This document shows, piece by piece, positions 15,803 to 47,610 of a stretch of DNA of 63,081 nt. Within the stretch, counting starts at the first letter, position 1. The number at the start of each line of letters is the position of its first letter. The stretch spans positions 1 through 63,081 of the IMG/VR virus record IMGVR_UViG_3300011116_000165, one strand, 5' to 3'. The position numbers and the translations under genes were made by a program. The notes beneath the pieces were generated by a model. It saw nothing but the letters and a program-made list of their open reading frames with translations. It searched no databases and was not told the DNA's origin. This stretch comes from a virus. Its lineage: Duplodnaviria; Caudoviricetes.

Positions 15803-17184
15803 GCGTCTTCTGAAATTATTTGTTTGTAAAGGTCAATGACCTTTTGGTGGTTGCCAATGTTGCCCCTGAGCATGGAGTACATGCGCGTCTCCACAGGGCT
15901 GCCATTGATGTGCACGACTGTCATGTTGTTGACCTGACCGGGGCGGTCAATCCGTGCGTTGGCTTGCAGGTAGGTTTCTACGCTGGTGCATGGAGCGTAC
16001 CAAATAATTGTGTTGGCCGCAGTTAGTGTTAACCCGTGGGATGCCGCTTTAGGCTGAATAATCAGCACCTTGGGGTCGGGGTTGTCTTGGAACCGTTTAA
16101 CTATGTCGGCGCGGTTGTTAACCGAGACAGCACCATTTATTACGTCACACGTAATGTTGTTCTTGGCTAAGTGCTTCTGAAGTAGCTCAATGGTGTGCGT
16201 GAACGGGACAAAGACCAGCACCTTGTGGCTGGACTCTTCAATGACTTCCTGCACCACTTTCAGTCGGTTGCTCACGTCAAACTCAATGATCTCACCGTTG
16301 TCCGAGTACACCGCACCGCCAGCAATTTGCAACAGCTTATTAATTTGTACCGCAGCATTAACGGCTGTGATCTCTTCGCCAGATGCCTCAATCAACATCT
16401 GCTTCTTAAGTATCCGGTAGTACTTTAATTGCTGTGGCGTCAGTGGCGCGTCTCTGTCTACAAAAGTAACAGGAGGCAGATCAAGGCAGTCGGCTTTCTC
16501 AAACCGGATGGCTGGCTGCAACGCCTTGTGCACGATGTTTTGCGCAGTTGGCTTTGGTATCCAGCGGTACAGACCCATCTTGAGCATCACTGAATCGCGG
16601 AACATACTGAAGAATTGCGGGACTCCAGTGGGGTTCACTAGCTTTGCCAGCCCATACGCATCTGCGGGGGACTGTGCTGCCGGTGTGCCTGTGAGCATCC
16701 ACAAGCCCTTGATAACTTTTGTTAGGTCACGCAGGTCTTTCCATCGGTCAGTCTGCGCATTCTTGTAGGCCGACGCCTCGTCCACCACGATCAGGTCAAA
16801 CCCGCCCGCAATAATTTCTTTCTTGACGATGCCAACGCCATCAAAATTAATGATGACAAAATCTGCGCCCATGTTGATAAGCTGTTTGCGTTTCTGCGCA
16901 GCACCGTATGCCACCGTAACCGTACGATGGATGGCAAACTTAAACAAGTCGTTCTGCCATGCCGACTTCATAATGGACAGGGGGCAGATCACCAGCACTC
17001 GGTTCACCAGCCCACGCTGCATCAAATAGTCTACGGCCCAAATCACTGATGCCGTTTTACCTGTACCCTGCTCGTTAAAGCAAAACGCTTTACGGTTTGT
17101 GGTTAGGAACTCTGATGTTAATTTCTGATGGTCGAATGGGGTAAACCCCGGAGGCCGGGGCCACTCATACTCTGATAGGCTCAT
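15799..17184 (-). CDS. SNF2-family helicase
   Basis: EQGTGKT, VVDEAS, LTGTP, GLTLT and QANARIDRPGQ motifs. Confidence 0.92.
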   Translation of the reverse strand: MSLSEYEWPRPPGFTPFDHQKLTSEFLTTNRKAFCFNEQGTGKTASVIWAVDYLMQRGLVNRVLVICPLSIMKSAWQNDLFKFAIHRTVTVAYGAAQKRKQLINMGADFVIINFDGVGIVKKEIIAGGFDLIVVDEASAYKNAQTDRWKDLRDLTKVIKGLWMLTGTPAAQSPADAYGLAKLVNPTGVPQFFSMFRDSVMLKMGLYRWIPKPTAQNIVHKALQPAIRFEKADCLDLPPVTFVDRDAPLTPQQLKYYRILKKQMLIEASGEEITAVNAAVQINKLLQIAGGAVYSDNGEIIEFDVSNRLKVVQEVIEESSHKVLVFVPFTHTIELLQKHLAKNNITCDVINGAVSVNNRADIVKRFQDNPDPKVLIIQPKAASHGLTLTAANTIIWYAPCTSVETYLQANARIDRPGQVNNMTVVHINGSPVETRMYSMLRGNIGNHQKVIDLYKQIISEDA

Positions 17185-17495
17185 TTTTTCTTACGCTCTT
17201 TGGTACTGACCTCTGATACTACCTTGTGGTTTGACCCACGCTTGAACGAACGGTTGGCGCTTGGGCTTTGCAGCTTTGTACCATCCTTGTTAGTTCCACC
17301 TTTAGATAAAGCCTTGATGTGTGCAACATCTTTTCCTTCGCGCACGTCAGCTTCTCCGTTGTTGTTTGTGTCGGGGTTCTTTTTATCAATTGCTTCTCTC
17401 GCTCGTTGTCGCTCAAGGCGGGACTTGCCCTCACCTCGGGCAAGCTGTTGGTCGTATTCTTTCTTATACGGACGGGGTTTATTTACGTAGGGCAT
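17181..17495 (-). CDS. Small HNH-like protein
   Basis: GKDVAHIKALSKGGTN...SANRS. Confidence 0.6.
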   Translation of the reverse strand: MPYVNKPRPYKKEYDQQLARGEGKSRLERQRAREAIDKKNPDTNNNGEADVREGKDVAHIKALSKGGTNKDGTKLQSPSANRSFKRGSNHKVVSEVSTKERKKK

Positions 17496-17500
17496 GACTA

Positions 17501-17791
17501 TTATCCTTTTTCAATCATGTGGGTACTAAGTTCTTTGTGGTCAAAACCAAAATCCTCGGGCTTTGATTCCCAAAGCGGCTTGCGACCTTCCTTCTCAATC
17601 AGGTTCAACATCTGCCCGACATTGATGCTGATCTCCATTAGCATTTTAGTTTTCTGCTCGGTAAAAATTGCTTGCATCTGCTTAGATACTTCTTCGCGCA
17701 CAATATTTACGGACACCTCATGCACTCGGCGCTTAAGTTCACCTTCAAGGATGAGGGCGGTATCGGTTTCTTCGTTAGTCATTGCACTCAT
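17501..17791 (-). CDS. Hypothetical protein
   Basis: ATG at 17791 after AGGAG; fills the operon gap. Confidence 0.65.
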   Translation of the reverse strand: MSAMTNEETDTALILEGELKRRVHEVSVNIVREEVSKQMQAIFTEQKTKMLMEISINVGQMLNLIEKEGRKPLWESKPEDFGFDHKELSTHMIEKG

Positions 17792-17793
17792 TT

Positions 17794-18456
17794 TTAGCTC
17801 CTGTTGTATTCGCAATCTTTCACTGCACAAAACTTGCACAGTGGGCCTTGGACAGGGTTCCACACCCCATTTTCCTTCGCTGCGTCGATTCGTGCAACAT
17901 CCTCGGTGGGCTTTTGCATATACTTGGGCAGCATCTCAACGTAGTGGTCGGCCCGAACAAACTCTTTACTCACCGTAAAAAGTAGAGCGGACTTCACCCT
18001 CTGGAGAGTCGGGAACTTGGCGAACAGGCCACAAGCTACAAGATCGAGTTGCTTCACGTCCGCATATCTCGCACTCTTGCTTGTCTTGTAGTCCACTGAG
18101 TAGGCCATCGTTTGGGTCGGATTGATAACCACCAAATCGGCTATTCCATGCCACCACACATTCGGCGCATCGAAATCGCAGCTTTCCAAGCTCCTTGTCA
18201 ACCCAAGCCTTACTTCGCATAACTTATCTCCGGGGATAGCCTTCAGTACATCTAAGGTAGCTTGCATATAAGCAAACTGCGGTGGGATTGGCACGTCATC
18301 ACGGATGTATTCTTCTGCTACCGTATGCGCTGTCTTGCCATAAAGCGTTGCCTGTGTATCGGGCTCAACAATATCTCGGACTACCTTGGTGTGGTAGTAC
18401 TTGCGGGGGCATTGCTGAAACGTCTTCAGACTGCTAAATGACCAGACAGTATTCAT
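17794..18456 (-). CDS. PD-(D/E)xK (Cas4/RecB-like) exonuclease
   Basis: SFSSLKTFQQCP, GIAD, DYKT, QLDL and CKFC..C motifs. Confidence 0.88.
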   Translation of the reverse strand: MNTVWSFSSLKTFQQCPRKYYHTKVVRDIVEPDTQATLYGKTAHTVAEEYIRDDVPIPPQFAYMQATLDVLKAIPGDKLCEVRLGLTRSLESCDFDAPNVWWHGIADLVVINPTQTMAYSVDYKTSKSARYADVKQLDLVACGLFAKFPTLQRVKSALLFTVSKEFVRADHYVEMLPKYMQKPTEDVARIDAAKENGVWNPVQGPLCKFCAVKDCEYNRS

Positions 18457-18653
18457 TTTGCTCGTTCCTTCATGTCGTTGATAGCGTGGAGCATCAGCTT
18501 GGTCTGCACTATGGCTTCCAGCGTTTGCTCAGCAGCCTCGTCATACATATTGGCTAGCATAAACAGGTGCGCATCCTTTAGCGCCTTCTCCGCCATCATC
18601 GCGGGAAACGCATAATCAACAATCGCCGTAACTTTTTCCATATCCAGCCTCAC
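18453..18653 (-). CDS. Hypothetical protein
   Basis: Coupled between polymerase and nuclease genes; start uncertain. Confidence 0.6.
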   Translation of the reverse strand: MRLDMEKVTAIVDYAFPAMMAEKALKDAHLFMLANMYDEAAEQTLEAIVQTKLMLHAINDMKERAK

Positions 18654-20433
18654 AATTTAAAGGTAAATCCAACGCCCATTTGGGGCGTAATCTCATGCAC
18701 AACTCTACGTACTCCTTGGCCGTTTCAACTTCGGCTTCGGGAACAACGATAGCAATTGCATCATGCACCGTCATGACCACTCGGTATTTCTTAGCGATCA
18801 TAAGCATCTGCTCACCGATCACAATCCGCGCAAGGGCTTGGCACATGTTCTCAATTACCTTGCCGCCGTAGATTCGGTTCGGTATTATGGCCTTGCCCTT
18901 CTTTGTATCGTAAACGATCTCGGCTTTGCCATCCTGCCCCTCATGCACTCTTAGGTTGGGGTAGCGTAGGTACAAGCCATTGGGTAGCCGTATACCGCCT
19001 GTGCCTTGTACCTCTAGTGCGCCATCCCGTCCAAATGTTGTCTGCTGGTTGCTTAAGATAGCTTTGAGGGCTGAGGCGGCAGACTTCCACAACTCTGTAA
19101 TCCTTGGGTAAGTTCTGCGGTAGGTATCAATGACGTGCTGGGCTGCGTCCAACTCAAACTCGACCCCAAAGTTTTTAAGCTGCGCTTTAAATTTGGCAGC
19201 ACCCATACCGTAACCACACCCAAGAATCGTAGTCTTACCCACAAATCGCTCATCCTTGGTAATGTCGCTCTCTGCTTTGTTGTAGATAGCTGAAGCCATG
19301 ATCTTGTATACGTCATCGCCCCGATCAAACGCAGCTACCAAGTCATCCTGCCCAGCCAACCAAGCCAACGTACGTGCTTCAATCTGCGAGGAGTCTGAGT
19401 CAATCATTACGTACCCATTGGGCGCAACGATGCAGGACTTAAGAATGGACTTGCGCGGCAGGTTCTGAAGGTTCAGCTTATCGTCGCCACCCCAGCGTCC
19501 AGTATGCGCAGCGTAATACCGTAGGGGTACAGGCAGTGCACCGCGGTAAGCAATACCGATAAACCTCTCTGTCCGCGTCTCTTCGATCGTTGACTTGGTT
19601 CCCAACCTAGCAGCCACTAACGCCTGTACTGCGGGGTCACTATGCTCTAGCAACGCCTTAAACTCTTCGTCCGTCTTAGAGAATGCGTAAGTTTGTTTAC
19701 CGTTGGCGGGGCTAACTTTCATCGGGGGCTCTACGCCCATCGCTCTGAGCAAGTCGGCGAACTTGGGGTTGCTCATCAAGTCGTCTTTGTTGTACGTACT
19801 AAGTATGCGCTTTTTGTTATCCTGCACATCAAGCAAATAGGTTTTCAGCTTCCCAACGTCCAGCCGCAGTACAGGCTCCGTAAACATCTTGACCGTCAGA
19901 TCAATGAGTCGCAACTCAGTCGGCGGGAAGTCCGTAGCCATCGCTTGAAAAAGGGCGTATGTGATAGCCACATCGTTCTTGCAGTACTCGCCATACCTTT
20001 GCAGTTGCTCGGGGCTGAAGTCCTTGCGGCGTAGGCCCAACGCATTTTCAACTTCGGTTCCCTTTTCGCCGATACCATAGTGGTTTGCTAGGACTTTAAG
20101 GCTGCCCCCTACTTCAGTACCGTGTAAGGCTCGGCCCATCGACAGAGTATCAAGCCAACCCTTGGGGCTGAGTCCGTATACCCAAGACAAAATTGCACCG
20201 TCAAACGGAGCGTTGTGCGCAAGGGCGAGGGAATTCCCCCAATCAAACTGAGCAAGGAACTGGTGCATGGCAGCAGCATCGCCGCTAAACCAAACTGGCT
20301 CTCCGTCGTTGATCTGCACCGACACGCCGATCGTTTCAAACTGCGAGCTACGAATGTATTCCTCAGTGGTAACTTTTGTTAGGCTGAACTCACGCGAATA
20401 AAAGGTCTCAAAGTCGATCGTGAGGATATTCAC
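18616..20433 (-). CDS. polA: Family A DNA polymerase with 3'-5' exonuclease
   Basis: DFET and HNAPFD exonuclease motifs; motif A DSSQIEAR, motif B KTTILGCGYG, motif C VHD. Confidence 0.95.
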   Translation of the reverse strand: MNILTIDFETFYSREFSLTKVTTEEYIRSSQFETIGVSVQINDGEPVWFSGDAAAMHQFLAQFDWGNSLALAHNAPFDGAILSWVYGLSPKGWLDTLSMGRALHGTEVGGSLKVLANHYGIGEKGTEVENALGLRRKDFSPEQLQRYGEYCKNDVAITYALFQAMATDFPPTELRLIDLTVKMFTEPVLRLDVGKLKTYLLDVQDNKKRILSTYNKDDLMSNPKFADLLRAMGVEPPMKVSPANGKQTYAFSKTDEEFKALLEHSDPAVQALVAARLGTKSTIEETRTERFIGIAYRGALPVPLRYYAAHTGRWGGDDKLNLQNLPRKSILKSCIVAPNGYVMIDSDSSQIEARTLAWLAGQDDLVAAFDRGDDVYKIMASAIYNKAESDITKDERFVGKTTILGCGYGMGAAKFKAQLKNFGVEFELDAAQHVIDTYRRTYPRITELWKSAASALKAILSNQQTTFGRDGALEVQGTGGIRLPNGLYLRYPNLRVHEGQDGKAEIVYDTKKGKAIIPNRIYGGKVIENMCQALARIVIGEQMLMIAKKYRVVMTVHDAIAIVVPEAEVETAKEYVELCMRLRPKWALDLPLNCEAGYGKSYGDC

Positions 20434-20795
20434 TTGAAAAACCCCGACAGTTGGGTTGACACCTTGTTGTTCTCGCTGCTGATATTGACGGAATCCACAA
20501 GGGCGGCGTGTGGGTTAATGCCAGCAATAGCAGTGGCATATCGGCCTGACGCTTTTATCTTTACGGTGTTCTCCATCTCTTCGGTAAGCAACTCCTTGAA
20601 CACCATAGAGTCGAACTCCTTGCGCCGCACTGCCTTCAACGCCTCGTGCAACGCGCCCTTCTCGGGCTCGGTCAGTACCTCACGGAAGTTAGGCTTAAAC
20701 ATAAAATTCCACTTCGGTGCATCCCCAAAAAACTCTTCGGGGTTTGATTCCATCCGTGCTACTAACGTACGCACTCCATCACTAAATTGGCTCAT
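20430..20795 (-). CDS. Hypothetical protein
   Basis: 121 aa, overlaps both neighbours by 4 nt. Confidence 0.7.
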   Translation of the reverse strand: MSQFSDGVRTLVARMESNPEEFFGDAPKWNFMFKPNFREVLTEPEKGALHEALKAVRRKEFDSMVFKELLTEEMENTVKIKASGRYATAIAGINPHAALVDSVNISSENNKVSTQLSGFFK

Positions 20796-21031
20796 TTCGG
20801 TTCCTCCAGTAGTTTCATCATTCCAATTGCGGTGTGCTTGTCCAGCCCTTTGGCTAGGGTCGTTGAATGCCTGCGCTGCAACTCAATCGAATACTCATTC
20901 CTGTATATTGAGTACTTGCCGTACCTAAACTTCATCACATACCACATACCAGCCTTTTCGTACTCAATACCAAACAGTTTGTTAAGCCCCGGTAACAATT
21001 CTTTGAGTAGGTCAGCACGGCTAATTGCCAT
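20792..21031 (-). CDS. Small protein with a copy of the major capsid N-terminus (candidate capsid mimic)
   Basis: MAISRADLLKELLPGLNKLFGIEY vs capsid MAISRAQLLKELLPGLNALFGMEY; alternative GTG start at 21040. Confidence 0.8.
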   Translation of the reverse strand: MAISRADLLKELLPGLNKLFGIEYEKAGMWYVMKFRYGKYSIYRNEYSIELQRRHSTTLAKGLDKHTAIGMMKLLEEPK

Positions 21032-21323
21032 TGCACTCACCTTCTATCCAACCCTTCAAGTCATCTATGTTTGTTTCGTAAATGACCGCAGTTAAACCAC
21101 CGGCTTCTCGGATAGCTTTAAGGTTTTTCTCTTGCAGCGCGGTAGTTGTACCCTTCCCTGCCTTAGCTTCAATAGCCAAAAACTTACCGTTCACGCAGCA
21201 AAGGAAATCGGGGACGCCACTGTTGCCGTAGCCAGTACCAATCGGCATGGCGTAGTAAACGTTGTGGGCTTTGAGGATGGCCTTAATCTTTGCTTTGACC
21301 TTGGCCTCGGGTGTTTGTGCCAT
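21021..21323 (-). CDS. VRR-NUC domain nuclease
   Basis: PE..GVPD..IEAK..LQ motif set. Confidence 0.9.
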   Translation of the reverse strand: MAQTPEAKVKAKIKAILKAHNVYYAMPIGTGYGNSGVPDFLCCVNGKFLAIEAKAGKGTTTALQEKNLKAIREAGGLTAVIYETNIDDLKGWIEGECNGN

Positions 21324-21350: not shown

Positions 21351-21378
21351 AGTATAACACAGTGTTTTACTCTGTCAA
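21351..21378 (-). promoter_or_regulatory. Sigma70-type promoter of the replication operon
   Basis: TTGACA-16 nt-TATACT with extended TG. Confidence 0.8.
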
Positions 21379-21390
21379 GGGTACAGGCGT

Positions 21391-21413
21391 AAAAAAGCCA
21401 CCCGAAGGTGGCT
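21391..21413 (-). terminator. Intrinsic terminator
   Basis: Minus strand AGCCACC-TTCG-GGTGGCT followed by a T-run. Confidence 0.88.
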
Positions 21414-21440: not shown

Positions 21441-21881
21441 TCACTTGAGCATACTGATCTCTCGCGTCAGATACCACTGTGCCTTGCGCAAGTCCTCCAG
21501 CTTGTTGCCTTTGTGGTCGGCGCGGGTCAGATACTTGACTACGTTGCCAAGGTTGTACCCCAGCTTCTTAGCCTCAATGAAGTCGATGGTCTCGATACCA
21601 CCTACCTTGTAATGGGCAGGGTGATTGACGTTATCGGGGGCGTTCACCGTATCGTTACTTGTGATGATTGCCAGCGTCTTCCACTTGTTCGCTGCTACCT
21701 TAGCTGACTTGCGTGGTACACGTGGGATGCCCTTCTTAGCTTTCTTGTCGTACGAAAGGGTTGCGTATACGTTCCTCAACGTAACACCCTCCAACGCCGC
21801 CGCAATATCATTTGGCTTAGCCTTGGGATGCTGCTTAACGTACGCACGGATTTTTGCTGCTGCTGTCTTAGTTTGTTTCAT
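21441..21881 (-). CDS. DUF3310 (SaV/T7 gp1.7-like) protein
   Basis: VNHPAHY..GIETIDFI..GNVVKYLTRA..EDLRKAQWYL. Confidence 0.85.
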   Translation of the reverse strand: MKQTKTAAAKIRAYVKQHPKAKPNDIAAALEGVTLRNVYATLSYDKKAKKGIPRVPRKSAKVAANKWKTLAIITSNDTVNAPDNVNHPAHYKVGGIETIDFIEAKKLGYNLGNVVKYLTRADHKGNKLEDLRKAQWYLTREISMLK

Positions 21882-22083
21882 TTTTAACTCCAGTTTGGTT
21901 AGTAACATACTCAGTAAGAATTTCTCTCATCTTGGCTTGCTTTGTATACGCAAAGTTAGTGTTGAAGTAATCCATCACCTCCTTTGTTAGACGCAGGCTC
22001 GTATTGAAAAGCGCGGGTTTCTTACCCAATCCCCGCCCTTTTCGTTTTTTCTCCGGTTTTAAAAACTCAATCCCTGTTGTCAT
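21868..22083 (-). CDS. BrnA-antitoxin-like ribbon-helix-helix protein
   Basis: KGRG..K..TSLRLTKEVMDYF..QAKMREILTEYV. Confidence 0.55.
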   Translation of the reverse strand: MTTGIEFLKPEKKRKGRGLGKKPALFNTSLRLTKEVMDYFNTNFAYTKQAKMREILTEYVTNQTGVKNETN

Positions 22084-38708: not shown

Positions 38709-38908
38709 TATTGAACGATTACAAAGTATTGGCCTATATAGCCAAGGAAATGGGCAGGCTCCGTTCGGAGCAAGAAGCCTTTGTAACCAGTGGTAGAGCG
38801 GGGGACTTCTCCGACTACCGCCACATCTGCGGGGTAATCCGAGGTCTAAACCTTGCAGAAGACATCATTAATGAACTCGTGCAAAAAATGGAGAAGTCTG
38901 ATGACTGA
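38705..38908 (+). CDS. Small head-module protein
   Basis: Y..ICGVIRGL motif; overlaps the portal stop. Confidence 0.7.
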   Translation: MILNDYKVLAYIAKEMGRLRSEQEAFVTSGRAGDFSDYRHICGVIRGLNLAEDIINELVQKMEKSDD

Positions 38909-39311
38909 ATTTGATACCGCTGCTGTAGACCTATCTGGCATTTTGAATAAACCTGCCGAAGAAAAAGCCAAGCAGTTGCCTGAACCTAAGACGTTCCACA
39001 TGCTCGCTGTAGTGCCCGAAGCTATGGAAGAGTATGCCGAGAGCGAACTGGGGATTCTTAAATCCGCGCAGTCTATGCACTACGAAGAAGTGCTGACTCC
39101 CGTGCTGTTTGTGGTCAAACTTGGCCCAGATTGTTACAAAGACGCAACACGGTTCCCCAGTGGGCCGTCGTGCAAGGAAGGTGATTTCATCATCGTCCGA
39201 CCCAATTCAGGCACCCGTCTGAAGATTCATGGCCGTGAATTCCGCATCATTAATGATGATTCGGTTGAAGCTGTTGTGGAAGACCCGCGTGGCATCACCC
39301 GCGCTGCTTAA
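38901..39311 (+). CDS. groES: GroES-like co-chaperonin
   Basis: VVKLGPDCY..CKEGDFI..GTRLKIHGREFRIINDDSVEAVV. Confidence 0.85.
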   Translation: MTEFDTAAVDLSGILNKPAEEKAKQLPEPKTFHMLAVVPEAMEEYAESELGILKSAQSMHYEEVLTPVLFVVKLGPDCYKDATRFPSGPSCKEGDFIIVRPNSGTRLKIHGREFRIINDDSVEAVVEDPRGITRAA

Positions 39312-39321
39312 GGAGTAAATC

Positions 39322-40302
39322 ATGGCAGATGGATATAAGTTCCCTCACGAGCTTGAGGAAGAAAATAAGGGTAAACCCGAAGATGACGAAGGGTTTGAGA
39401 TAGAAATTGAGGACGATACCCCGGCTCCTGACCGAGGTCGTAAGGCTGATCCCAAGCCTCCAGAAGACCCAACGGATGACGAATTATCGTCCTACGATGA
39501 GAAAGTACAGGCACGGATTAAGAAATTTACCCGTGGTTACCACGACGAACGTAGGGCTAAGGAAGAGGCTTTGCGGGAGCGGGAAGCGGCTGAAAACCTA
39601 ACAAAACAGCTTTGGCAGCAGAATCGCGCCCTCCAGCAACAGGTCGAATTAGGGTCTCGCGCCTATATTGAGCAGTCAAAAACCTCTGCCGAGATGGAAT
39701 TTGACAAGGCCAAGAAGGAATATAAAGAGGCTTATGAGTCCGGCGACTCCGACGCGGTGGTGGAAGCACAGGCAAAAATAGCTCGTGCCACACTAAATAT
39801 GGACAAAGTTAGTAATTTTAGGCCTATACAAACGGACGAAAATGAAGTACAAACGCCACAACGTAATACAAATCAGGTTCCTGTTACCCAGCGAGATGCA
39901 AGTTGGCAGCAGGAAAATACATGGTTTGGCACCGACGAAGAGATGACTGCTGCGGCTCTTGGGTTACACCAAAAGCTCGTCAAACAACGTGGTGCTAACT
40001 TTGTAGGCACAAATGAGTATTACAAACAAGTGGACGCTACAATGCGTAAACGATTCTCCGATTACTTTGAAGGTGACGGAAGCTATGAAGATGATGCGAC
40101 TTCTAAACAGGCATCAGAACCGGCAGAGGAAGAAACTCCCCGCCGTGCAACAAAACCGTCTACGGTAGTAGCTCCTGCTGCACGTAGTACACCGCCTAAT
40201 CGTATTCGATTGAAGGCATCCGAAGCAGCGATCGCTCGCCGTCTTGGGGTTCCCTTGGAAGAATATGCTAAACAGGTTGCTCAACTGAAGAGAGGTAATT
40301 GA
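39322..40302 (+). CDS. Putative scaffolding protein
   Basis: Acidic coiled-coil; C-terminal AIARRLGVPLEEYAK; upstream of capsid. Confidence 0.7.
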   Translation: MADGYKFPHELEEENKGKPEDDEGFEIEIEDDTPAPDRGRKADPKPPEDPTDDELSSYDEKVQARIKKFTRGYHDERRAKEEALREREAAENLTKQLWQQNRALQQQVELGSRAYIEQSKTSAEMEFDKAKKEYKEAYESGDSDAVVEAQAKIARATLNMDKVSNFRPIQTDENEVQTPQRNTNQVPVTQRDASWQQENTWFGTDEEMTAAALGLHQKLVKQRGANFVGTNEYYKQVDATMRKRFSDYFEGDGSYEDDATSKQASEPAEEETPRRATKPSTVVAPAARSTPPNRIRLKASEAAIARRLGVPLEEYAKQVAQLKRGN

Positions 40303-40304
40303 TT

Positions 40305-40778
40305 ATGGAACAAGCTCAAACAGCCGTTAAGGCGCAAAACCGATTGGCTCGTGAATTGGACACCCGCGAGGTGTTCGCTCGCCCAGCAATGTGGCGTCCT
40401 CCCGAGACTTTGCCTATGCCGGATGATCGTCCGGGATGGTCGCATCGGTATGTGCGTACTAGCACTCTTGGTGCTGCTGATCCAAGCAATATTTCTTCTA
40501 AGTTACGTGAAGGATACGAACCCTGTAAAGGGGAAGACTATCCCGAGCTAATGATGCACGCTTCTACCGAAGGTCGCTTTAAAGGCAACATTGAGGTAGG
40601 TGGACTGTTGCTTTGCCGTATTCCGAGTGAGTTTATGAAACAAAGGTCTGCATACTACGACGACATAAACAAGGCTCAAACTGAATCGGTGGACAACAAT
40701 TTTCTTCGTGAGAATGATCCTCGGATGCCTCTCTTCTCAGAGAAGCGGTCTAAGGTCACTTTCGGTTCTGGTACTTAA
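40305..40778 (+). CDS. Head-module hypothetical protein
   Basis: REGYEP..VGGLLLC motif; operon context. Confidence 0.7.
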   Translation: MEQAQTAVKAQNRLARELDTREVFARPAMWRPPETLPMPDDRPGWSHRYVRTSTLGAADPSNISSKLREGYEPCKGEDYPELMMHASTEGRFKGNIEVGGLLLCRIPSEFMKQRSAYYDDINKAQTESVDNNFLRENDPRMPLFSEKRSKVTFGSGT

Positions 40779-40792
40779 TATAGGAGTCTTTT

Positions 40793-41617
40793 ATGGCTTA
40801 TCCGGTTATTGATGCCCCTTACGGGCTAAAGCCGATCAACCTGATCGGCGGTCAGGTATTTGCGGGTTCTACTCGTGAATATCCGATCACTAACGGTTAC
40901 AGCACAGCAATTTTCTACGGCGATTACGTAGGTTTGTCTCGTGGTGAAATCGTGCGCTTGTCTGTGTCTACCGGCACGGCTGGCAATCAAACAGGTGTCT
41001 TTTTGGGATGCCGTTATACAAACCCTGTTACTAAACAGTTGACTTTCTCGCAATACTGGCCCGCATCCACTGCGTCCGGTGATGCAGTAGCCATTGTTAG
41101 TGATGACCCTGATGCGGTCTTTAAAGCAGTGGTTTGCTCGTCTGGAACAACTGTTGCTTCTGGTGCCCGTGCAATGATTGGTCAAAACTTGGCCATGATT
41201 AACAACACAGGCAGTACTGCAACTGGTGACTCCAAGAACGCAGCGTTAGCCCCTAGCGATACGCCCGCCACCACTTCGTCCTTGCCCGTTCGCGTGCTTG
41301 GCTTGGTGCCTGACACGGCTGTTTCGCTTGGAACTGTGACCTATACCAGCATCTCTACCGCTACTGTAACTTGCTCGGCTCTGCCGTTCGCGTTGCCTGT
41401 TGGTACTGACGTTGGTTCGCTGGATTCAAACGGTCAATACGTTTCTTCCGGTTCGTTCGTTGATACCGCTGCTGCTGCCGGTGCTACATCGTTTATTTTG
41501 AATCAGGCTCCTGTTGCTACATTGAACACAACTATTGTGTTGATGCAGTACCCAGAGATTCTGGTCAAGATTAACTTTGGTCAGCATCAGTACTATGCTG
41601 GCACCAGCATTGCTTAA
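40793..41617 (+). CDS. Minor capsid/decoration protein
   Basis: APYGLKP..IFYGD..GVFLGC..DDPD; directly before the capsid gene. Confidence 0.65.
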   Translation: MAYPVIDAPYGLKPINLIGGQVFAGSTREYPITNGYSTAIFYGDYVGLSRGEIVRLSVSTGTAGNQTGVFLGCRYTNPVTKQLTFSQYWPASTASGDAVAIVSDDPDAVFKAVVCSSGTTVASGARAMIGQNLAMINNTGSTATGDSKNAALAPSDTPATTSSLPVRVLGLVPDTAVSLGTVTYTSISTATVTCSALPFALPVGTDVGSLDSNGQYVSSGSFVDTAAAAGATSFILNQAPVATLNTTIVLMQYPEILVKINFGQHQYYAGTSIA

Positions 41618-41630
41618 GGAGTAACTTAAA

Positions 41631-42542
41631 ATGGCTATTTCACGCGCACAGCTACTTAAAGAGTTGCTCCCCGGACTCAATGCCTTGTTTGGTATGGAGT
41701 ATTCCCGCTACGGCGAAGAGCACAAGGAAATCTACGAGACTGAAACCTCTGAGCGTTCCTTTGAAGAAGAGACAAAACTGTCTGGTTTCTCTGCTGCACC
41801 TGTTAAGAACGAGGGCTCTGCCATCGCTTACGACAATGCACAGGAAGCATGGACAACTCGTTACAACCACGAAACCATTGCCCTTGGCTTCTCAATCACC
41901 GAAGAGGCGATTGAAGATAACCTGTACGACAGCTTGTCTGCTCGTTACACCAAGTCTTTGGCTCGTGCTATGGCATACACCAAGCAGGTTAAAGCTGCTG
42001 CTGTTATCAACAACGGTTTCTCGGCGGCTTATGTCGGCGGTGACGGTGTTGCTCTATTCAGCACTGCCCACCCCCTGATTTCTGGTGGTGTTAATAGCAA
42101 CCGTCCGTCTACTGCCGCTGACCTGAACGAGACTTCCTTGGAAGCCGCCGTTATCCAGATCGCTGCTTGGACAGACGAGCGTGGTCTTCTGATCGCTGCT
42201 AAGCCCAAGAAGTTGATTGTTCCTCCTGCCCTGCAATTCGTTGCTACCCGTCTGTTGGAAACCAGCCTCCGCGTTGGTACTACCGACAACGATATCAATG
42301 CGTTGAAGAACAACGGTTCGATCCCAGAAGGCTACACCATTAATCACTACCTGACCGACACAAACGGCTGGTATCTGACTACTGATGTGCCTAACGGTCT
42401 GAAGCACTTTGTCCGCTCTCCTCTGGAGAACAAGATGGACGGTGACTTCGATACCGGCAACGTCCGCTACAAGGCCCGCGAGCGTTATTCGTTCGGCTGG
42501 TCTGACCCACTGGGAATCTTCGGATCGCCCGGTTCGTCCTAA
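41631..42542 (+). CDS. Major capsid protein (Mu gpT-like)
   Basis: MAISRAQLLKELLPGL..RYKARERYSFGWSD; strong SD, codon bias, downstream terminator. Confidence 0.92.
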   Translation: MAISRAQLLKELLPGLNALFGMEYSRYGEEHKEIYETETSERSFEEETKLSGFSAAPVKNEGSAIAYDNAQEAWTTRYNHETIALGFSITEEAIEDNLYDSLSARYTKSLARAMAYTKQVKAAAVINNGFSAAYVGGDGVALFSTAHPLISGGVNSNRPSTAADLNETSLEAAVIQIAAWTDERGLLIAAKPKKLIVPPALQFVATRLLETSLRVGTTDNDINALKNNGSIPEGYTINHYLTDTNGWYLTTDVPNGLKHFVRSPLENKMDGDFDTGNVRYKARERYSFGWSDPLGIFGSPGSS

Positions 42543-43863: not shown

Positions 43864-44415
43864 ATGGCTACAAGATGGGATAACTTACCCGGACTCAATG
43901 ATGATGTCATTGAACGTGCCAGAGAAGACTTGGCCAAAGCTAAAAAAGGTCGTGACGTAGATTCGTCTAACCTTAAAGGTGGAGCTAAAGAGTCTGTTCG
44001 TGAAGCTGGTACTCGTGCCCGTAATCGCAATTTAGGCCGTATGGGCGCTGCGCAAGCCGCGTTTTCTGCTGGGTATGAAGCGGGTCGAGAGCTTGATGAG
44101 CGCACTGGTTTGGGTAAAAAGATGGTTGACAAGTCTGGCATAGGCGACCTTGTAGATAAAGCGGTCAACATGCGGGACAAGGTTAAGCTTTCCAAAGAAG
44201 CACAGAGACGTGTGGGTGAGGGCGAAACAAAGTCTGAAGATACCGATATGGGCAAATATGAGCCTCGCCGTACTGAAGGTGATTTTGGCGCATACAAACG
44301 TGGTGGGGCCGTTAAAAAGATGGCTTCCGGTGGCATGACTTCTAAGGTCTCCAGTGCCTCTAAACGGGCTGACGGAATTGCTCAGCGCGGTAGAACTAAA
44401 GGGCGGTATCTGTAA
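43864..44415 (+). CDS. Basic protein with C-terminal SASxRADG tag
   Basis: YKRGG..MASGG..SASKRADGIAQRGRTKG. Confidence 0.75.
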   Translation: MATRWDNLPGLNDDVIERAREDLAKAKKGRDVDSSNLKGGAKESVREAGTRARNRNLGRMGAAQAAFSAGYEAGRELDERTGLGKKMVDKSGIGDLVDKAVNMRDKVKLSKEAQRRVGEGETKSEDTDMGKYEPRRTEGDFGAYKRGGAVKKMASGGMTSKVSSASKRADGIAQRGRTKGRYL

Positions 44416-44663
44416 TGGAACTCCCGGTCTGGAATGTCTTTTTATCTTTCCTGTCAGCAGCGTTGCTGTTATGGGTAAAGGTATCCCATGATGAAGTCAA
44501 GAGACTAGGTATCCTCCTGAGTAAAACTCGGGAAGAGAACGCCGAAAAGTTTGTGACCAAGAACGATATGCACGCTGATATTAATCGGGTATTGGCCCGA
44601 CTTGATCGGATGGACGAGAAGCTTGATGCCTTTATGAAGGAGCAGCGTAGTGCCCTCGGTTAG
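44415..44663 (+). CDS. N-terminal TM plus coiled-coil protein
   Basis: WNVFLSFLSAALLLWV; TAATG coupling. Confidence 0.7.
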   Translation: MELPVWNVFLSFLSAALLLWVKVSHDEVKRLGILLSKTREENAEKFVTKNDMHADINRVLARLDRMDEKLDAFMKEQRSALG

Positions 44664-45075
44664 CAAAAAGCAGCACAACTTTATGGCTGCGGTAGCAAAC
44701 AACCCCAGTTTTGCAAGCAAGGCTGGCGTACCCCAATCTGTCGGTGCCGATTTTGAAGCGGCGGATAAAGGCTTGAAGTTTGGTAAAGGATCGTCTAAGA
44801 CCCGTGCTGATCTTCAGAAAGTTAACAACCCAAAGACTTTGCACGGCAAAGCATCTATCATGAAAAAAGGTGGTACTACTATGGCTACAAAGAAAATGAA
44901 CCCATTTGCTAAATTTGAGGCGTCTGCCAAAGACAAAGCAATGGACAAAAAGGCAATGGGTATGAAGAAAATGGCTTCTGGTGGCTCTGCCTCTTCCCGC
45001 GCTGACGGTGTTGCTACAAAAGGCAAGACCAAGGGTACATTTGTGAAGATGAACAAGGGCGGCATGTCCTGCTAA
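44650..45075 (+). CDS. Lys-rich protein with SASxRADG tag
   Basis: GTG start after AGGAG; SASSRADGVATKGKTKG. Confidence 0.75.
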   Translation: MPSVSKKQHNFMAAVANNPSFASKAGVPQSVGADFEAADKGLKFGKGSSKTRADLQKVNNPKTLHGKASIMKKGGTTMATKKMNPFAKFEASAKDKAMDKKAMGMKKMASGGSASSRADGVATKGKTKGTFVKMNKGGMSC

Positions 45076-45084
45076 GGATCAATC

Positions 45085-45297
45085 ATGGCTGATTACAAGT
45101 ACCCCAAAGATGTTCCTGTGGACGAGCCGGTTAGCAAAAAACCTGCCCCTAAGCCAAAACCAAAGCCAAAAATGCCTATCTACAAGGACAGTGTTCCTGT
45201 GGATGAGCCGGTGGCAGCAATGGCTAAAGGTGGGTCTGCTTCCAGCCGTGCTGATGGCATTGCTCAACGGGGTAAAACCCGTGGAAAGATGTGCTAA
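45085..45297 (+). CDS. Small Pro/Lys protein with SASxRADG tag
   Basis: Duplicated VPVDEPV; MAKGGSASSRADGIAQRGKTRG. Confidence 0.75.
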   Translation: MADYKYPKDVPVDEPVSKKPAPKPKPKPKMPIYKDSVPVDEPVAAMAKGGSASSRADGIAQRGKTRGKMC

Positions 45298-45300
45298 GCC

Positions 45301-45576
45301 ATGATGGCCTCACGCGGTATGGGCGATATCCTCCCATCCAAAATGCCAAAGGGCAAGAAAACTGCCCGACGGGATAACACTGACTTCACTCAGTACGCTG
45401 AGGGCGGAAAGGTTAATGCTGCTGGCAATTACACAAAACCAAGCCTTCGCAAGAAGATTGTGTCCCAAGTAAAAGCCGCAGCTACCCAAGGCACGGGCGC
45501 AGGAAAATGGAGCGCGAGAAAAGCGCAGCTTGTAGCCAAGAAGTACAAGGCTTCTGGTGGGGGGTACAGAGATTGA
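45301..45576 (+). CDS. DUF5872-like N-terminal half
   Basis: YTKPSLR..WSARKAQL..YKASGGGY. Confidence 0.7.
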   Translation: MMASRGMGDILPSKMPKGKKTARRDNTDFTQYAEGGKVNAAGNYTKPSLRKKIVSQVKAAATQGTGAGKWSARKAQLVAKKYKASGGGYRD

Positions 45577-45806
45577 AAGCTCCGCAGCAATCGCTTAAAG
45601 ATTGGGGTGACCAGAAATGGCGCACTAAATCTGGCAAACCGTCTAGCAAGACGGGAGAGCGATATCTGCCGGAAAAAGCCATAAAATCTTTGAGCCCTGC
45701 TGAGTATGCAGCTACTACCAAAGCCAAACGGGCAGGTAAAGCAGCAGGAAAACAGTTTGTGGCGCAGCCTAAGACAATTGCAAAGAAAACAGCAGGGTTT
45801 AGATAA
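45573..45806 (+). CDS. DUF5872-like C-terminal half
   Basis: TTG start in a TTGA overlap; QQSLKDW..ERYLP..GKQFV. Confidence 0.65.
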   Translation: MKAPQQSLKDWGDQKWRTKSGKPSSKTGERYLPEKAIKSLSPAEYAATTKAKRAGKAAGKQFVAQPKTIAKKTAGFR

Positions 45807-46729
45807 TGGCATACACCTCCGGCTCCACTACGTTTAACCTTGATCTAGTCGAGCTAGTTGAGGAAGCGTTTGAACGCGCTGGTGGTGAACTGCGCACGGG
45901 TTATGACATGCGCACTGCGCGGCGTAGCCTCAACATTATGTTTGCCGACTGGGCCAATCGTGGTTTGAACATGTGGACGATGGAGACGGGCACCATTAAC
46001 TTGGTGCAGGGTCAAAACACCTATCCACTCCCCGAGGACACGGTAGATTTGCTGGAGCATGTGATTCGCACACAGGCCAATAGCACTACCAACCAAGCTG
46101 ACTTGACTATCACCCAAATTAGTGTATCCACGTACGCTACGATCCCCAACAAGCTCACCCAAGCACGTCCAATTCAAGTGTGGTTCCAACGCTATAACGG
46201 CCAGAACTCGCCGACTGGCTTGACTTTGAACGGCGCAATCAGCGCCACGGACACCACGATTGTTCTCAACTCTACTGTTGGCCTGCCCTCTACTGGGTTC
46301 ATAAAAGTTGACAACGAGTATATTAACTACGTGTATATATCAGGGAATACCCTATATAGCTGCTTCCGTGGGCAACAAAACACCACTGCGGCCAGCCACA
46401 CTACGGGCACTGCCGCATACTGGGCGCAAATACCCGCTGTCACCGTTTGGCCAACACCAGATGGAGCGCAGCCCTATCAATTTGTCTACTGGCGACTGCG
46501 CCGCACCCAAGATGCTGGTGGCGGTGTCAACGTGATGGACGTACCGTTTCGCTTTATCCCCTGCATGGCGGCTGGATTGGCCTACTACATGGCGTTAAAA
46601 GTAGCTGGAGGTGCTGAGCGCCTGCCTGTACTGAAGCAGCAATATGATGATTCTTGGGAGCTAGCCGCTACGGAAGACCGTGAAAAGGCAGCTATTCGAT
46701 TTGTTCCAAGACAACAATTTATAAGCTAA
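45806..46729 (+). CDS. Putative head-tail connector/tail protein
   Basis: 307 aa; EEAFER..WANRG..PFRFIP; position in the late arm. Confidence 0.55.
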   Translation: MAYTSGSTTFNLDLVELVEEAFERAGGELRTGYDMRTARRSLNIMFADWANRGLNMWTMETGTINLVQGQNTYPLPEDTVDLLEHVIRTQANSTTNQADLTITQISVSTYATIPNKLTQARPIQVWFQRYNGQNSPTGLTLNGAISATDTTIVLNSTVGLPSTGFIKVDNEYINYVYISGNTLYSCFRGQQNTTAASHTTGTAAYWAQIPAVTVWPTPDGAQPYQFVYWRLRRTQDAGGGVNVMDVPFRFIPCMAAGLAYYMALKVAGGAERLPVLKQQYDDSWELAATEDREKAAIRFVPRQQFIS

Positions 46730-46739
46730 CGGGCCTAAA

Positions 46740-47129
46740 ATGGGTAATCGTTTCGCTTCCGGTAAAAATAGTATCGCTATATGCGATAGGTGTGGCTTTC
46801 AGTTCAAATTAACTGTACTACGCAAAGAAGTTATTAAGACGAAGACGTACAATTTGCTTGTCTGTGATGAGTGCTGGGATCCTGACCAGCCCCAGTTGCA
46901 GTTAGGTATGTACCCAGTAGATGATCCGCAAGCTGTACGCAACCCACGTAGGGATGGTTCATACGTAACAGCAGGGTTGAATGCAAGTGGTAACCTGACT
47001 GGGGGTTCTAGGGATGTTCAGTGGGGTTGGGCACCGGTAGGCGGAGCCAGCCAATTTGACGCAGTTCTTACACCAAATTACTTGGTAGGAACAACAAGTG
47101 TTGGTACAGTATCGGTAACAGTTTCTTAG
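46740..47129 (+). CDS. Zn-finger hypothetical protein
   Basis: CDRC..CDEC. Confidence 0.7.
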   Translation: MGNRFASGKNSIAICDRCGFQFKLTVLRKEVIKTKTYNLLVCDECWDPDQPQLQLGMYPVDDPQAVRNPRRDGSYVTAGLNASGNLTGGSRDVQWGWAPVGGASQFDAVLTPNYLVGTTSVGTVSVTVS

Positions 47130-47138
47130 GAGCTAAAC

Positions 47139-47339
47139 ATGGCAAAAGCAGAATCAATGGCATCGGACAAAAAGCAGGACGTTGCCCTCCTCAAAAAGGC
47201 ATTTAAACAGCACGACAGCCAAGAGCACAAAGGTGGCAAAGGTACATCGTTGAAGCTAAAAAAAGGTGGCCCGACTACGGATGACCGTATGCGTATGGGT
47301 CGCAACTTGTCTCGTGCAGCTAACCAAAAGACGGGGTAA
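47139..47339 (+). CDS. Small basic protein
   Basis: SD AGGAG; LKKGG. Confidence 0.65.
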   Translation: MAKAESMASDKKQDVALLKKAFKQHDSQEHKGGKGTSLKLKKGGPTTDDRMRMGRNLSRAANQKTG

Positions 47340-47343
47340 TACT

Positions 47344-47610
47344 ATGGCTACTTATAGCAAAAAAATAATGGGTAAAGAAATTGGCGCTGCTAGCGTTTAC
47401 GCACCTCCGCACAAGATGGACGGTAAAGCGCTGAAGATTTCTGGTAACCCCGGTAAAGATTCTGAACTTAGTAGCATGTCTACTATGCGCATGAGCGTCG
47501 GCGCTATCAGCAAGTCTGCCGGTGACGAGCAAACCAAAACCAGCGGCATCAAAATCCGTGGTACTGGCGCAGCTACCAAAGGTTTGTACGCAAGAGGCCC
47601 AATGGCATGA
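47344..47610 (+). CDS. Small basic protein
   Basis: C-terminal RGTGAATKG. Confidence 0.65.
   Translation: MATYSKKIMGKEIGAASVYAPPHKMDGKALKISGNPGKDSELSSMSTMRMSVGAISKSAGDEQTKTSGIKIRGTGAATKGLYARGPMA

What the first reader, a model, noticed from the sequence alone, without database searches (positions are those of the whole stretch)
20792..21031. Replication-arm mini-protein carries a selected copy of the phage's own capsid N-terminus (candidate decoy/mimic)
Seen: this 79-aa ORF begins MAISRADLLKELLPGLNKLFGIEY (20960-21031), and the major capsid protein at 41631 begins MAISRAQLLKELLPGLNALFGMEY, so 21 of 24 residues are identical. Of those 21 residues, 13 use different codons, including Ser AGC vs TCA. 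This points to protein-level selection, not a recent DNA duplication or misassembly. The rest of the ORF is unrelated to capsid. It lies on the opposite strand, second in the operon driven from 21351-21378, so it is probably expressed before the capsid. Established: capsid proteins trigger some abortive-infection sensors (CapRel, Lit/Gol). Inference: it could be (a) a decoy that occupies a capsid sensor before late expression, (b) a dominant-negative inhibitor of head assembly in co-infecting relatives, or (c) a capsid-addressing tag that loads the C-terminal domain into heads. I know of no description of such a gene.
Basis: partly seen in the sequence, partly recalled or inferred. Interest (0 to 1): 0.9.

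Follow-up and report, generated by a model that had tools for sequence, protein, structure and literature searches.

The report
Capsid N-arm copy tags small phage protein
A small protein encoded beside the DNA polymerase of an uncultured aquatic phage starts with a selectively maintained copy of the first 24 residues of the phage's own capsid protein, and related phages put the same tag on several unrelated small proteins, which suggests a portable signal for docking onto the head-assembly machinery.

Summary
The 79-aa ORF 20792..21031(-) and the HK97-fold capsid protein (41631..42542) share 21 of their first 24 residues. Thirteen of those 21 use different codons, and synonymous sites are saturated (pS 0.80, pN 0.16).

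The gene belongs to a large family: 249 metagenomic proteins and 80 IMG/VR loci. It always sits in the slot endonuclease -> X -> DNA polymerase A. The conserved part is a C-terminal beta3-alpha core. The capsid-like helix is modular: near-identical, diverged or absent among orthologues, while the cognate capsid N-arm stays invariant.

At least three other small-protein families with different bodies carry the same tag. Two of them occupy the same slot. In relatives, replication-arm proteins also carry copies of the conserved C-terminal motif of the candidate scaffolding protein, which I infer to be the N-arm's partner.

Best reading (about 0.35): a docking tag that binds the scaffold and prohead, like the T4 capsid-targeting sequence. 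Binding, packaging and expression are untested, and the one complex prediction gave no answer.

This scan noted the same phenomenon earlier on another genome (e1-5939698).

The parts
21351..21378 (-). sigma70-type promoter (TTGACA, 16 nt, TATACT with TG extension) driving endonuclease, mini-protein, 121-aa protein and DNA polymerase A
   Evidence: 11 of 12 matches; sequence
21396..21413 (-). intrinsic-terminator-like hairpin ending the upstream unit
21021..21323 (-). 100-aa endonuclease (phrog_93), first gene of the operon; its last 11 bases overlap the mini-protein start
   Evidence: conserved upstream neighbour in 79 of 80 loci
20792..21031 (-). 79-aa mini-protein: N-terminal helix (residues 5-25) plus beta3-alpha core (strands 29-36, 39-48, 53-63; helix 65-76)
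20960..21031 (-). codons 1-24, the copy of the capsid N-arm (21 of 24 residues identical, synonymous sites saturated)
20430..20795 (-). 121-aa protein of unknown function, start overlaps the mini-protein stop (ATGA); in some relatives its homologue ends in a scaffold-like motif
18616..20433 (-). DNA polymerase A with 3'-5' exonuclease domain, last gene of the coupled set
41631..42542 (+). major capsid protein, HK97 fold; residues 5-29 form the N-arm helix (41631..41702 = the 24 residues copied)
39322..40302 (+). candidate scaffolding protein (326 aa: acidic N-terminus, long helical middle, conserved basic C-terminal motif)
   Evidence: role inferred from gene order and sequence character
40189..40299 (+). 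residues 290-326 of the candidate scaffold, its best conserved stretch and the proposed partner of the N-arm
   Evidence: partnership inferred by analogy (PMC5644958)
38853..39311 (+). GroES-like co-chaperonin gene in the head module
   Evidence: phrog_3188, E 1.1e-6; annotated as GroES in three cultured relatives

Best explanation
The first 24-26 residues of the mini-protein are a portable copy of the capsid protein's N-arm helix. I propose that this copy docks the protein onto whatever the capsid N-arm docks onto during head assembly. The most likely partner is the conserved C-terminal motif of the scaffolding protein (39322..40302). Scaffold would then carry the small protein into proheads, much as the T4 capsid-targeting sequence loads diverse internal proteins.

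The beta3-alpha core would be the payload. Its own activity is unknown.

Shown here:
- the mimicry;
- its maintenance by selection;
- its modularity (present, diverged or absent on one conserved core);
- its presence on unrelated small proteins of the same genome arm;
- copies of the scaffold's C-terminal motif on neighbouring replication-arm proteins in relatives.

Inferred, not shown:
- that the 326-aa protein is the scaffold;
- that its C-terminus binds the N-arm;
- that the mini-protein binds it;
- that the mini-protein ends up in the head.
For: 1. The copy is real, old and selected: 21 of 24 residues, pS 0.80 vs pN 0.16.

2. It corresponds to the N-arm helix of an HK97-fold capsid protein. 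The model has H5-29 before the E-loop strands and spine helix, and 218 PDB matches at E <= 0.001, led by phage capsids. The mini-protein model has H5-25 at lower confidence (pLDDT about 70) than its core (86-96).

3. The residues kept across the family are mostly leucines and Phe20: P14, L16 and F20 are invariant, and R5, L12, L13 and L19 are at least 90% conserved. The copies differ systematically from the capsid at positions 7 and 18. Position 7 is D in 66 and Q in 34 of 108 copies, against Q in 76 of 76 capsids. Position 18 is K in 81 of 108, against A in 74 of 76.

4. One tag sits on different bodies:
- fam4 (3 cluster representatives) lies in the same endonuclease-to-polymerase slot (L178);
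- fam5 (107 aa, a cluster of 7 members on contigs up to 34 kb) lies in the same slot in more distant phages;
- fam2 (8 representatives, 7 loci) lies two genes beyond the polymerase;
- an earlier scan note describes a further case on another genome.

5. The C-terminal motif is the best conserved part of 69 homologues of the candidate scaffold. An HMM of it, run against 41,048 ORFs of all loci held, also hits:
- inserts in DUF3310 proteins in 8 loci (best E 1e-7);
- C-termini of the 121-aa-protein homologues (L026 2e-7, L069 9e-7);
- a 61-aa ORF (L046);
- the N-termini of fam5 members L235-L237 (2.5e-4; hhalign E 2.1e-5).
Some fam5 members carry the N-arm-like tag and others the scaffold-like tag at the same place.

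6. In L069 one protein carries both, in tandem: a copy of the diverged mini-protein helix (11 of 20, E 1e-5) and then the scaffold-like motif. A fusion of this kind hints that the two motifs interact.

7. In the window's genome the only scaffold-like motif is the one in the candidate scaffold itself.

8. In phage 80alpha the scaffold's C-terminal helix-and-hook binds the capsid N-arm helix (PMC5644958, passages).

9. The gene evolves faster than its neighbours: 44-86% identity against 61-93% for the polymerase and 88-98% for the capsid. The tag state also changes often on the polymerase tree. That fits a variable payload locus.
Against: - No binding, packaging or expression datum exists.
- The gene lies in a replication operon behind a host-type promoter, not among late genes.
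- In 31 of 80 loci the N-terminus retains 9 or fewer of 24 identities, and some have no helix at all (L077, L078; also P0134, P0126). The capsid N-arm in two such genomes (G002, G003) is unchanged. The tag is therefore dispensable for the core's function.
- Among orthologues the tag segment is no more constrained than the core (pN/pS 0.36 vs 0.31).
- None of the three cultured relatives searched (HTVC023P, Pag-Yong1, DSL-LC04) has a second copy of the motif, so the system is optional.
- The scaffold role of the 326-aa protein rests only on position and sequence character. It has no Pfam hit, and its one PHROG match (phrog_28737) is to a family of unknown function.
- The scaffold-like motif resembles generic helix-turn-helix patterns, and the weakest hits (E about 1e-4) could be that.
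- The capsid set used for positions 7 and 18 was retrieved with patterns taken from the motif itself, so its invariance is partly by selection.
Confidence: 0.35

Rival explanations
1. Assembly modulator: the N-arm copy competes with capsid subunits for scaffold, or caps capsid subunits. This would delay or tune head assembly, or interfere with co-infecting relatives. The protein itself would not be packaged.
For: The mimicry evidence is the same as for the best reading. The gene lies behind a host-type promoter in the replication operon, so the protein may be present before or along with the capsid protein. fam3 proteins are little more than the tag plus a short acidic tail. SaPI1 CpmB is a known competitor at this interface in 80alpha (PMC5644958: title, abstract listing and figure legends).
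Against: The N-arm is the same in every relative examined: 6 of 6 cognate capsids, and 19-22 of 24 residues in three cultured phages. An inhibitor would therefore hit the phage's own assembly as well. Tags on larger, enzyme-like proteins such as DUF3310 are hard to read as regulators. It is not established that fam3 ORFs are complete, because no genomic context was obtained.
Confidence: 0.15
2. Immune decoy: the copy occupies a host sensor that recognises the capsid N-arm and blocks abortive infection.
For: Capsid proteins are triggers of several bacterial sensors (Avs7 and Dsr1 in PMC13581612, abstract and passages; CapRel and Lit are recalled, not read here). The N-arm is the most invariant part of this capsid family, so it would make a good target. 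The locus is variable and mosaic.
Against: No sensor, host or defence gene is known for these uncultured phages. A near-identical copy of a trigger should activate rather than block. The decoy reading does not explain the copies of the scaffold motif on neighbouring proteins.
Confidence: 0.1
3. The helix and the scaffold-like motif are a co-opted interaction pair. They would hold replication-arm proteins together (mini-protein, DUF3310 protein, 121-aa protein), with no link to heads.
For: Both motifs occur on proteins of the same operon region in relatives, and once in tandem in a single protein (L069).
Against: In the window's genome the only scaffold-like motif is in the head module. The DUF3310 inserts mostly occur in loci whose mini-protein tag is diverged: 7 of 8 such loci have 7 or fewer of 24 identities. 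The tag stays close to the capsid sequence rather than drifting with a private partner.
Confidence: 0.1
4. Shared N-terminal signal for a process other than assembly, such as processing by a protease, chaperonin (GroEL/GroES) recognition, or turnover. The recalled precedent is the host Prp cleavage motif shared by L27 and by the 80alpha scaffold and capsid proteins.
For: The motif starts at residue 2-4 in nearly every carrier. The phage encodes a GroES-like protein in the head module.
Against: No protease gene was recognised among the ten head-module proteins scanned. A 24-residue amphipathic helix is long for a cleavage signal. This reading does not explain the scaffold-motif copies. The Prp precedent is recalled from memory and was not read here.
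Confidence: 0.1
5. No capsid-related function: the helix is simply the first element of a small alpha-beta3-alpha domain, and the likeness is a relic of an old recombination.
For: The model has alpha-beta-beta-beta-alpha topology, with weak matches to dsRNA-binding domains (Foldseek E about 0.1). The tag is lost or diverged in many orthologues.
Against: Synonymous sites are saturated yet 21 of 24 residues are kept. The same peptide sits on at least three other bodies. The core occurs on its own without the helix (L078, P0134). Helix confidence is lower than that of the core.
Confidence: 0.1

Closest known systems
T4 capsid-targeting sequence (CTS) on internal proteins IPI-III
   Same: A short conserved N-terminal peptide is shared by otherwise diverse small proteins. 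In T4 it directs them to the scaffolding core of the prohead (PMC3012670, passage). Here too the bodies are diverse and fast-evolving.
   Different: Here the tag is a copy of the capsid protein's own N-arm. No prohead protease or cleavage is evident. The genes lie in the replication arm behind a host-type promoter. Packaging is not shown.
SaPI1 CpmB and the 80alpha scaffolding protein
   Same: Both concern competition or mimicry at the docking interface between the scaffold C-terminus and the capsid N-arm (PMC5644958, passages).
   Different: CpmB copies the scaffold side and is encoded by a satellite, to resize capsids. The window's protein copies the capsid side and is encoded by the phage itself. 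Scaffold-side copies do occur in relatives, but on replication-arm proteins.
Encapsulin cargo-loading peptides and the HK97 protease C-terminal targeting tail (recalled, not read here)
   Same: Short terminal peptides load cargo into HK97-fold shells.
   Different: Those peptides bind the shell and are not copies of a shell segment. They are usually C-terminal.
Earlier scan finding e1-5939698 (another freshwater phage genome)
   Same: A selectively maintained copy of the capsid's first 24 residues sits on a non-structural protein of the early arm.
   Different: The carrier protein and the slot differ (after a MoxR/vWA pair), and there the tag is an optional 31-codon extension. I did not re-examine that genome.

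Membership tests
T4-type capsid-targeting sequence system | One short N-terminal peptide shared by unrelated proteins of one phage group | tested here: met
   The same 24-residue motif heads the mini family, fam2, fam4 and fam5.
T4-type capsid-targeting sequence system | Tagged proteins are found inside proheads or virions | not testable with these tools
   No virion proteome exists. None of the three cultured relatives searched has the gene.
T4-type capsid-targeting sequence system | Tag removed by the prohead protease at a consensus site | tested here: inconclusive
   No protease family was hit among ten head-module proteins. Absence from a family scan does not prove absence.
T4-type capsid-targeting sequence system | Tag binds the scaffolding core | not testable with these tools
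   The only attempt gave no verdict (see Tried and rejected).
Scaffold-mimicking size-redirection proteins (CpmB type) | Carries a copy of the scaffold's capsid-binding C-terminus | tested here: not met
   The window's mini-protein copies the capsid N-arm. The scaffold-motif HMM hits only the scaffold in this genome.
HK97-fold major capsid protein (for 41631..42542) | HK97 fold with N-arm, E-loop and spine helix; capsid family profile match | tested here: met
   Pfam Phage_capsid_4 9.5e-16 and Mu-like_gpT 3.6e-9. Model with H5-29 and H99-128. 218 PDB matches at E <= 0.001, led by phage capsids.
dsRNA-binding domain (alpha-beta3-alpha) | Fold match to solved dsRBDs | tested here: inconclusive
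   The topology is alike, but Foldseek gives E 0.09-0.5 and TM 0.2-0.3.
YegP/UPF0339-like or WGR-like small beta3-alpha domains (family labels for the entries are partly recalled) | Fold match of the core, residues 27-79 | tested here: inconclusive
   VIA-align best Z is 4.5 (rmsd 2.5, 47 aligned). 3bid Z 4.3, 2k7i 3.5, WGR domains 3.4-3.8. All are below the level the tool calls meaningful.

The most novel reading that the evidence does not exclude
Phages of this abundant aquatic group (relatives of HTVC023P-type pelagiphages) use both halves of the capsid N-arm / scaffold C-terminus docking interface as interchangeable address labels. The labels are grafted onto diverse early-arm proteins. 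This would be a natural two-sided cargo-loading code that packs variable effector proteins into heads for delivery with the DNA.
Probability: 0.25. Interest if true: 0.85.

Novelty: new variant of a known kind. Interest (0 to 1): 0.68.

Why it matters
If the tag is a docking label, it would be a second natural cargo-loading system for tailed-phage heads, unrelated to the T4 one. It would be built by copying a piece of the shell protein itself, and mirrored in relatives by copies of the scaffold's tail.

It would also:
- pinpoint, by comparative genomics alone, the likely scaffold-capsid interface of a capsid family with no solved structure;
- offer a 24-residue peptide for loading foreign proteins into such capsids.

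Even if the function is different, a capsid segment maintained by selection on non-structural proteins is unusual.

Tried and rejected
- Complex prediction of scaffold residues 190-326 with the mini-protein (collected): no answer (score 0.00, controls not run). It counts neither for nor against binding.
- Expression: the run search listed no holder on record as RNA. Four runs labelled RNA-Seq were judged 'probably DNA' once laid and are contigs only. They give no evidence on expression. They do show that a relative about 90% alike is abundant there.
- Cultured-phage collection: no DNA match. The only protein match at E <= 10 was a chance-level hit.
- Pfam: no family for the mini-protein. PHROGs: only a marginal 17-residue hit.
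- PDB by sequence: nothing meaningful for the mini profile (best E 0.11) or for the capsid.
- Fold searches of the mini model: no match with E <= 0.001 in PDB or BFVD, and best VIA Z 4.5.
- ESM Atlas on the core: best score 0.77, below the level of a lead.
- Three giant proteins that hit the core in the profile search (P0142, P0151, P0162) are Big_13 or HTH repeat proteins. I treat those hits as spurious.
- fam3 context: three tries failed. Searches were flooded by capsid genes: 76 of the 80 loci hold a complete ~301-324-aa ORF at the match and 4 are cut by the contig end (checked). The 80 loci are largely the same contigs, with no match beyond query residue 48, and were not checked. One search failed because the alignment was not conserved enough. 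I therefore do not claim that fam3 ORFs are complete or say where they lie.
- Context of the P0196-type protein was not found. The P0213 type was not found in IMG/VR but was found in metagenome contigs.
- The careful polymerase tree did not finish within the time limit, so the quick tree is used.
- L026 against L054 gave no significant helix match, so the tandem-motif claim rests on L069 alone.
- Strict complementarity between a capsid-like tag on the mini-protein and a scaffold-like insert elsewhere was considered and dropped. Only 8 of 80 loci have the DUF3310 insert, and several loci with diverged tags lack it.
- Literature: searches found no description of a capsid N-arm copy on non-structural proteins.
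Full report
**1. The observation**

The ORF at 20792..21031(-) encodes 79 residues from the ATG at 21031. The mechanical list starts it at GTG 21040. Its first 24 residues match those of the capsid protein at 41631..42542 in 21 positions. Thirteen of the 21 identical residues use different codons, and 50 of 72 bases agree.

BLASTP aligns only this stretch: 22 of 28 identical, E 2e-12 for the pair. By Nei-Gojobori counting, synonymous sites are saturated (13.2 differences on 16.5 sites) while non-synonymous change is small (8.8 on 55.5). The copy is therefore old and held at the protein level.

The genome is a complete 63-kb virus record with terminal repeats. It contains exactly two matches to the family profile: this gene and the capsid N-terminus.

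**2. Setting in the window**

A near-consensus sigma70-type promoter at 21378..21351(-) follows a terminator at 21413..21396(-). Behind it lie four genes with overlapping stops and starts:
- a 100-aa endonuclease (phrog_93);
- the mini-protein;
- a 121-aa protein of unknown function;
- DNA polymerase A.

A DUF3310 protein lies just upstream of the terminator.

The other arm holds terminase, portal, a GroES-like protein, a 326-aa protein, a 159-aa protein, a 274-aa protein and the capsid protein.

The capsid protein matches Pfam Phage_capsid_4 and Mu-like gpT. Its closest cultured relatives are Planktothrix phage Pag-Yong1 and MinM2 (71%), Pelagibacter phages HTVC023P and HTVC027P (63-65%), DSL-LC04, and Roseobacter phages CRP-901 and CRP-902. 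An AlphaFold model of moderate quality (pLDDT 66) has a helix at 5-29 ahead of the E-loop strands and the spine helix. It matches 218 PDB chains at E <= 0.001, led by phage capsids. The copied segment is thus the N-arm helix of an HK97-fold capsid protein.

**3. The family**

The word-indexed search found 249 proteins of 43-139 aa. The best 120 are 56-97% identical to the query. Of these 120, 108 carry the capsid-like motif.

IMG/VR holds 86 confirmed stretches, and 80 loci were kept. The endonuclease homologue is the upstream neighbour in 79 of 80 loci; the remaining locus is cut by its contig end. Polymerase A follows in 73 of 80; the other 7 end first. In between there may or may not be a homologue of the 121-aa protein.

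The gene evolves faster than its neighbours. Identity to the window is 44-86%, against 61-93% for the polymerase and 66-96% for the endonuclease.

The AlphaFold model (pLDDT 82) has a helix at 5-25 (pLDDT about 70) and a well-defined three-stranded sheet plus helix at 29-76 (pLDDT 86-96). Fold searches give only weak, generic matches.

**4. The tag is modular**

The family's invariant and near-invariant positions lie mostly in the core. In the helix they are R5, L12, L13, P14, L16, L19 and F20.

Across the 80 loci, the N-terminus shares:
- 17-21 of 24 residues with the capsid N-arm in 19 loci;
- 11-16 of 24 in 30 loci;
- 9 or fewer in 31 loci.

The last group includes a different helix type, and two loci with no helix at all (L077, L078).

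Six records hold both genes. Their capsid proteins are 88-98% identical to the window's and have the same N-arm, with one M/L change. Their mini-protein tags share 19, 15, 14, 11, 7 and 6 of 24 residues with it. The tag therefore does not track the capsid, which does not vary.

On a quick polymerase tree of 49 sequences, the capsid-like state is scattered through the deep clades. At least 15 state changes are needed, and the 'high' state is no more clustered than in shuffles. Near-identical polymerases can sit beside very different tags. The window's nearest relative (L001, polymerase 92%) has an almost identical core, but 15 of 24 in the tag. This points to frequent exchange of the 5' module.

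The copies also differ systematically from the capsid. Position 7 is D in 66 of 108 copies, against Q in 76 of 76 capsids. Position 18 is K in 81 of 108, against A in 74 of 76. One caveat applies: the capsid set was retrieved with motif-derived patterns. So the copies form their own lineage and are not continually re-copied from the capsid gene.

**5. The same tag on other bodies**

A profile search of 1.84 billion representatives gave 189 hits at E <= 0.001. Many are capsid N-terminal fragments or chimeric contigs. The list also contains small proteins with the tag and unrelated remainders.

- fam4 has 3 representatives. In L178 the gene lies directly after the endonuclease and before the polymerase, which is the same slot. 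In L180 the same body has a different N-terminal helix.
- fam5 is 107 aa, with a cluster of 7 equal-length members on contigs up to 34 kb. The gene lies directly before the polymerase and after the endonuclease, in phages whose polymerase is only 43-52% identical.
- fam2 has 8 representatives and 7 loci. It is a 66-aa protein two genes beyond the polymerase, in phages with 47% polymerase identity.
- fam3 (9 representatives, tag plus a short acidic tail) and a further 107-aa type (P0196) have no context.
I did not re-examine it.

Three cultured relatives have the motif only in their capsid genes.

**6. The other side of the interface**

The 326-aa protein has an acidic N-terminus, a long helical middle and a basic C-terminal motif. 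In 69 homologues that motif is the best conserved part of a protein otherwise 32-60% identical. I take it to be the scaffolding protein, from gene order and sequence character only.

In 80alpha the scaffold's C-terminal helix-and-hook binds the capsid N-arm helix (PMC5644958, passages).

I ran an HMM of the C-terminal motif against 41,048 ORFs from all loci held. It hits the scaffolds and also:
- inserts in DUF3310 proteins of 8 mini-protein loci (best domain E 1e-7);
- the extreme C-termini of homologues of the 121-aa protein (L026 2e-7, L069 9e-7, L039 4e-3);
- a 61-aa ORF after the polymerase (L046, 4e-4);
- the N-termini of fam5 members L235-L237 (2.5e-4).

hhalign places the fam5 N-terminus on scaffold profile columns 291-313 (E 2.1e-5, probability 77%). 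Other fam5 members carry the capsid-like tag at the same place.

In L069 the 121-aa-protein homologue ends with a copy of the diverged mini-protein helix (11 of 20, E 1e-5), followed by the scaffold-like motif.

The weaker hits may owe something to generic helix-turn-helix character. The strong ones share flanking residues with the scaffold tail.

In the window's genome the only such motif is in the 326-aa protein itself.

**7. Interpretation**

What is shown:
- a capsid N-arm copy maintained by selection;
- modular, and exchanged among lineages;
- attached to several unrelated small proteins of the replication arm;
- in relatives, joined by copies of the candidate scaffold's tail on neighbouring proteins.

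The simplest common reading is that these peptides plug their carriers into the capsid-scaffold docking interface. In T4, diverse internal proteins share only a conserved targeting sequence that loads them onto the scaffolding core (PMC3012670, passage). I therefore favour a docking or loading tag, with confidence about 0.35.

An assembly modulator, an immune decoy, a private interaction pair within the replication module, another N-terminal signal, and a functionless relic all remain possible. None was excluded by a test.

The location behind a host-type promoter is not decisive. A related pelagiphage relies on host RNA polymerase throughout infection (PMC12753301, passage).

**8. Limits**

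- No expression, binding or virion datum was obtained.
- Counts over loci are not de-duplicated.
- The tree is the quick version.
- Supplementary files of papers were not available.

Noticed in passing
L051:8570-9091, L067, L060, L057, L038, L071, L073, L022 (DUF3310 homologues): An insert of about 33 residues closely resembling the scaffold's C-terminal motif sits between the N-terminal HTH and the DUF3310 domain. The window's own DUF3310 protein (21441..21908) lacks it.
   Followed up: partly
L017 (protein P0070, 100 aa): The in-frame upstream region of the mini-protein gene holds a second, degenerate copy of the N-arm-like motif in tandem with the first. It could be a longer product or a relic of a duplication.
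   Followed up: no
P0258 (108 aa, metagenomic): The capsid N-terminus (about 35 residues) is joined to a homologue of the C-terminal half of the window's 159-aa head-module protein (40299..40778). This may be a chimeric assembly or a real rearrangement.
   Followed up: no
window 38853-39311: A GroES-like co-chaperonin gene lies between the portal and the candidate scaffold. It is conserved and annotated as GroES in HTVC023P, Pag-Yong1 and DSL-LC04.
   Followed up: partly
window 40793-41617: The protein just upstream of the capsid gene is 274 aa, Thr/Ser/Ala/Gly-rich in its second half. The equivalent genes of three cultured relatives encode about 190-200 aa. It may be a decoration or fibre-like extension.
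   Followed up: no
window 21000-21037: Contigs of a relative about 90% alike in four aquatic runs carry several small indels exactly over the first codons of the mini-protein gene. This fits the tag being the exchangeable part.
   Followed up: no
window 43864-47610: An earlier first-reader note (e1-6269018) reports a shared C-terminal tag on small basic late proteins of this genome, read as a possible head-loading signal. I did not examine it. If real, the phage would have two kinds of candidate tag.
   Followed up: no
window 17495-17794: In the fam2 phages the tagged 66-aa gene lies between homologues of window ORFs 17794..18456 and 17181..17495. I did not check the window's own short interval there for a tag-less counterpart.
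   Followed up: no
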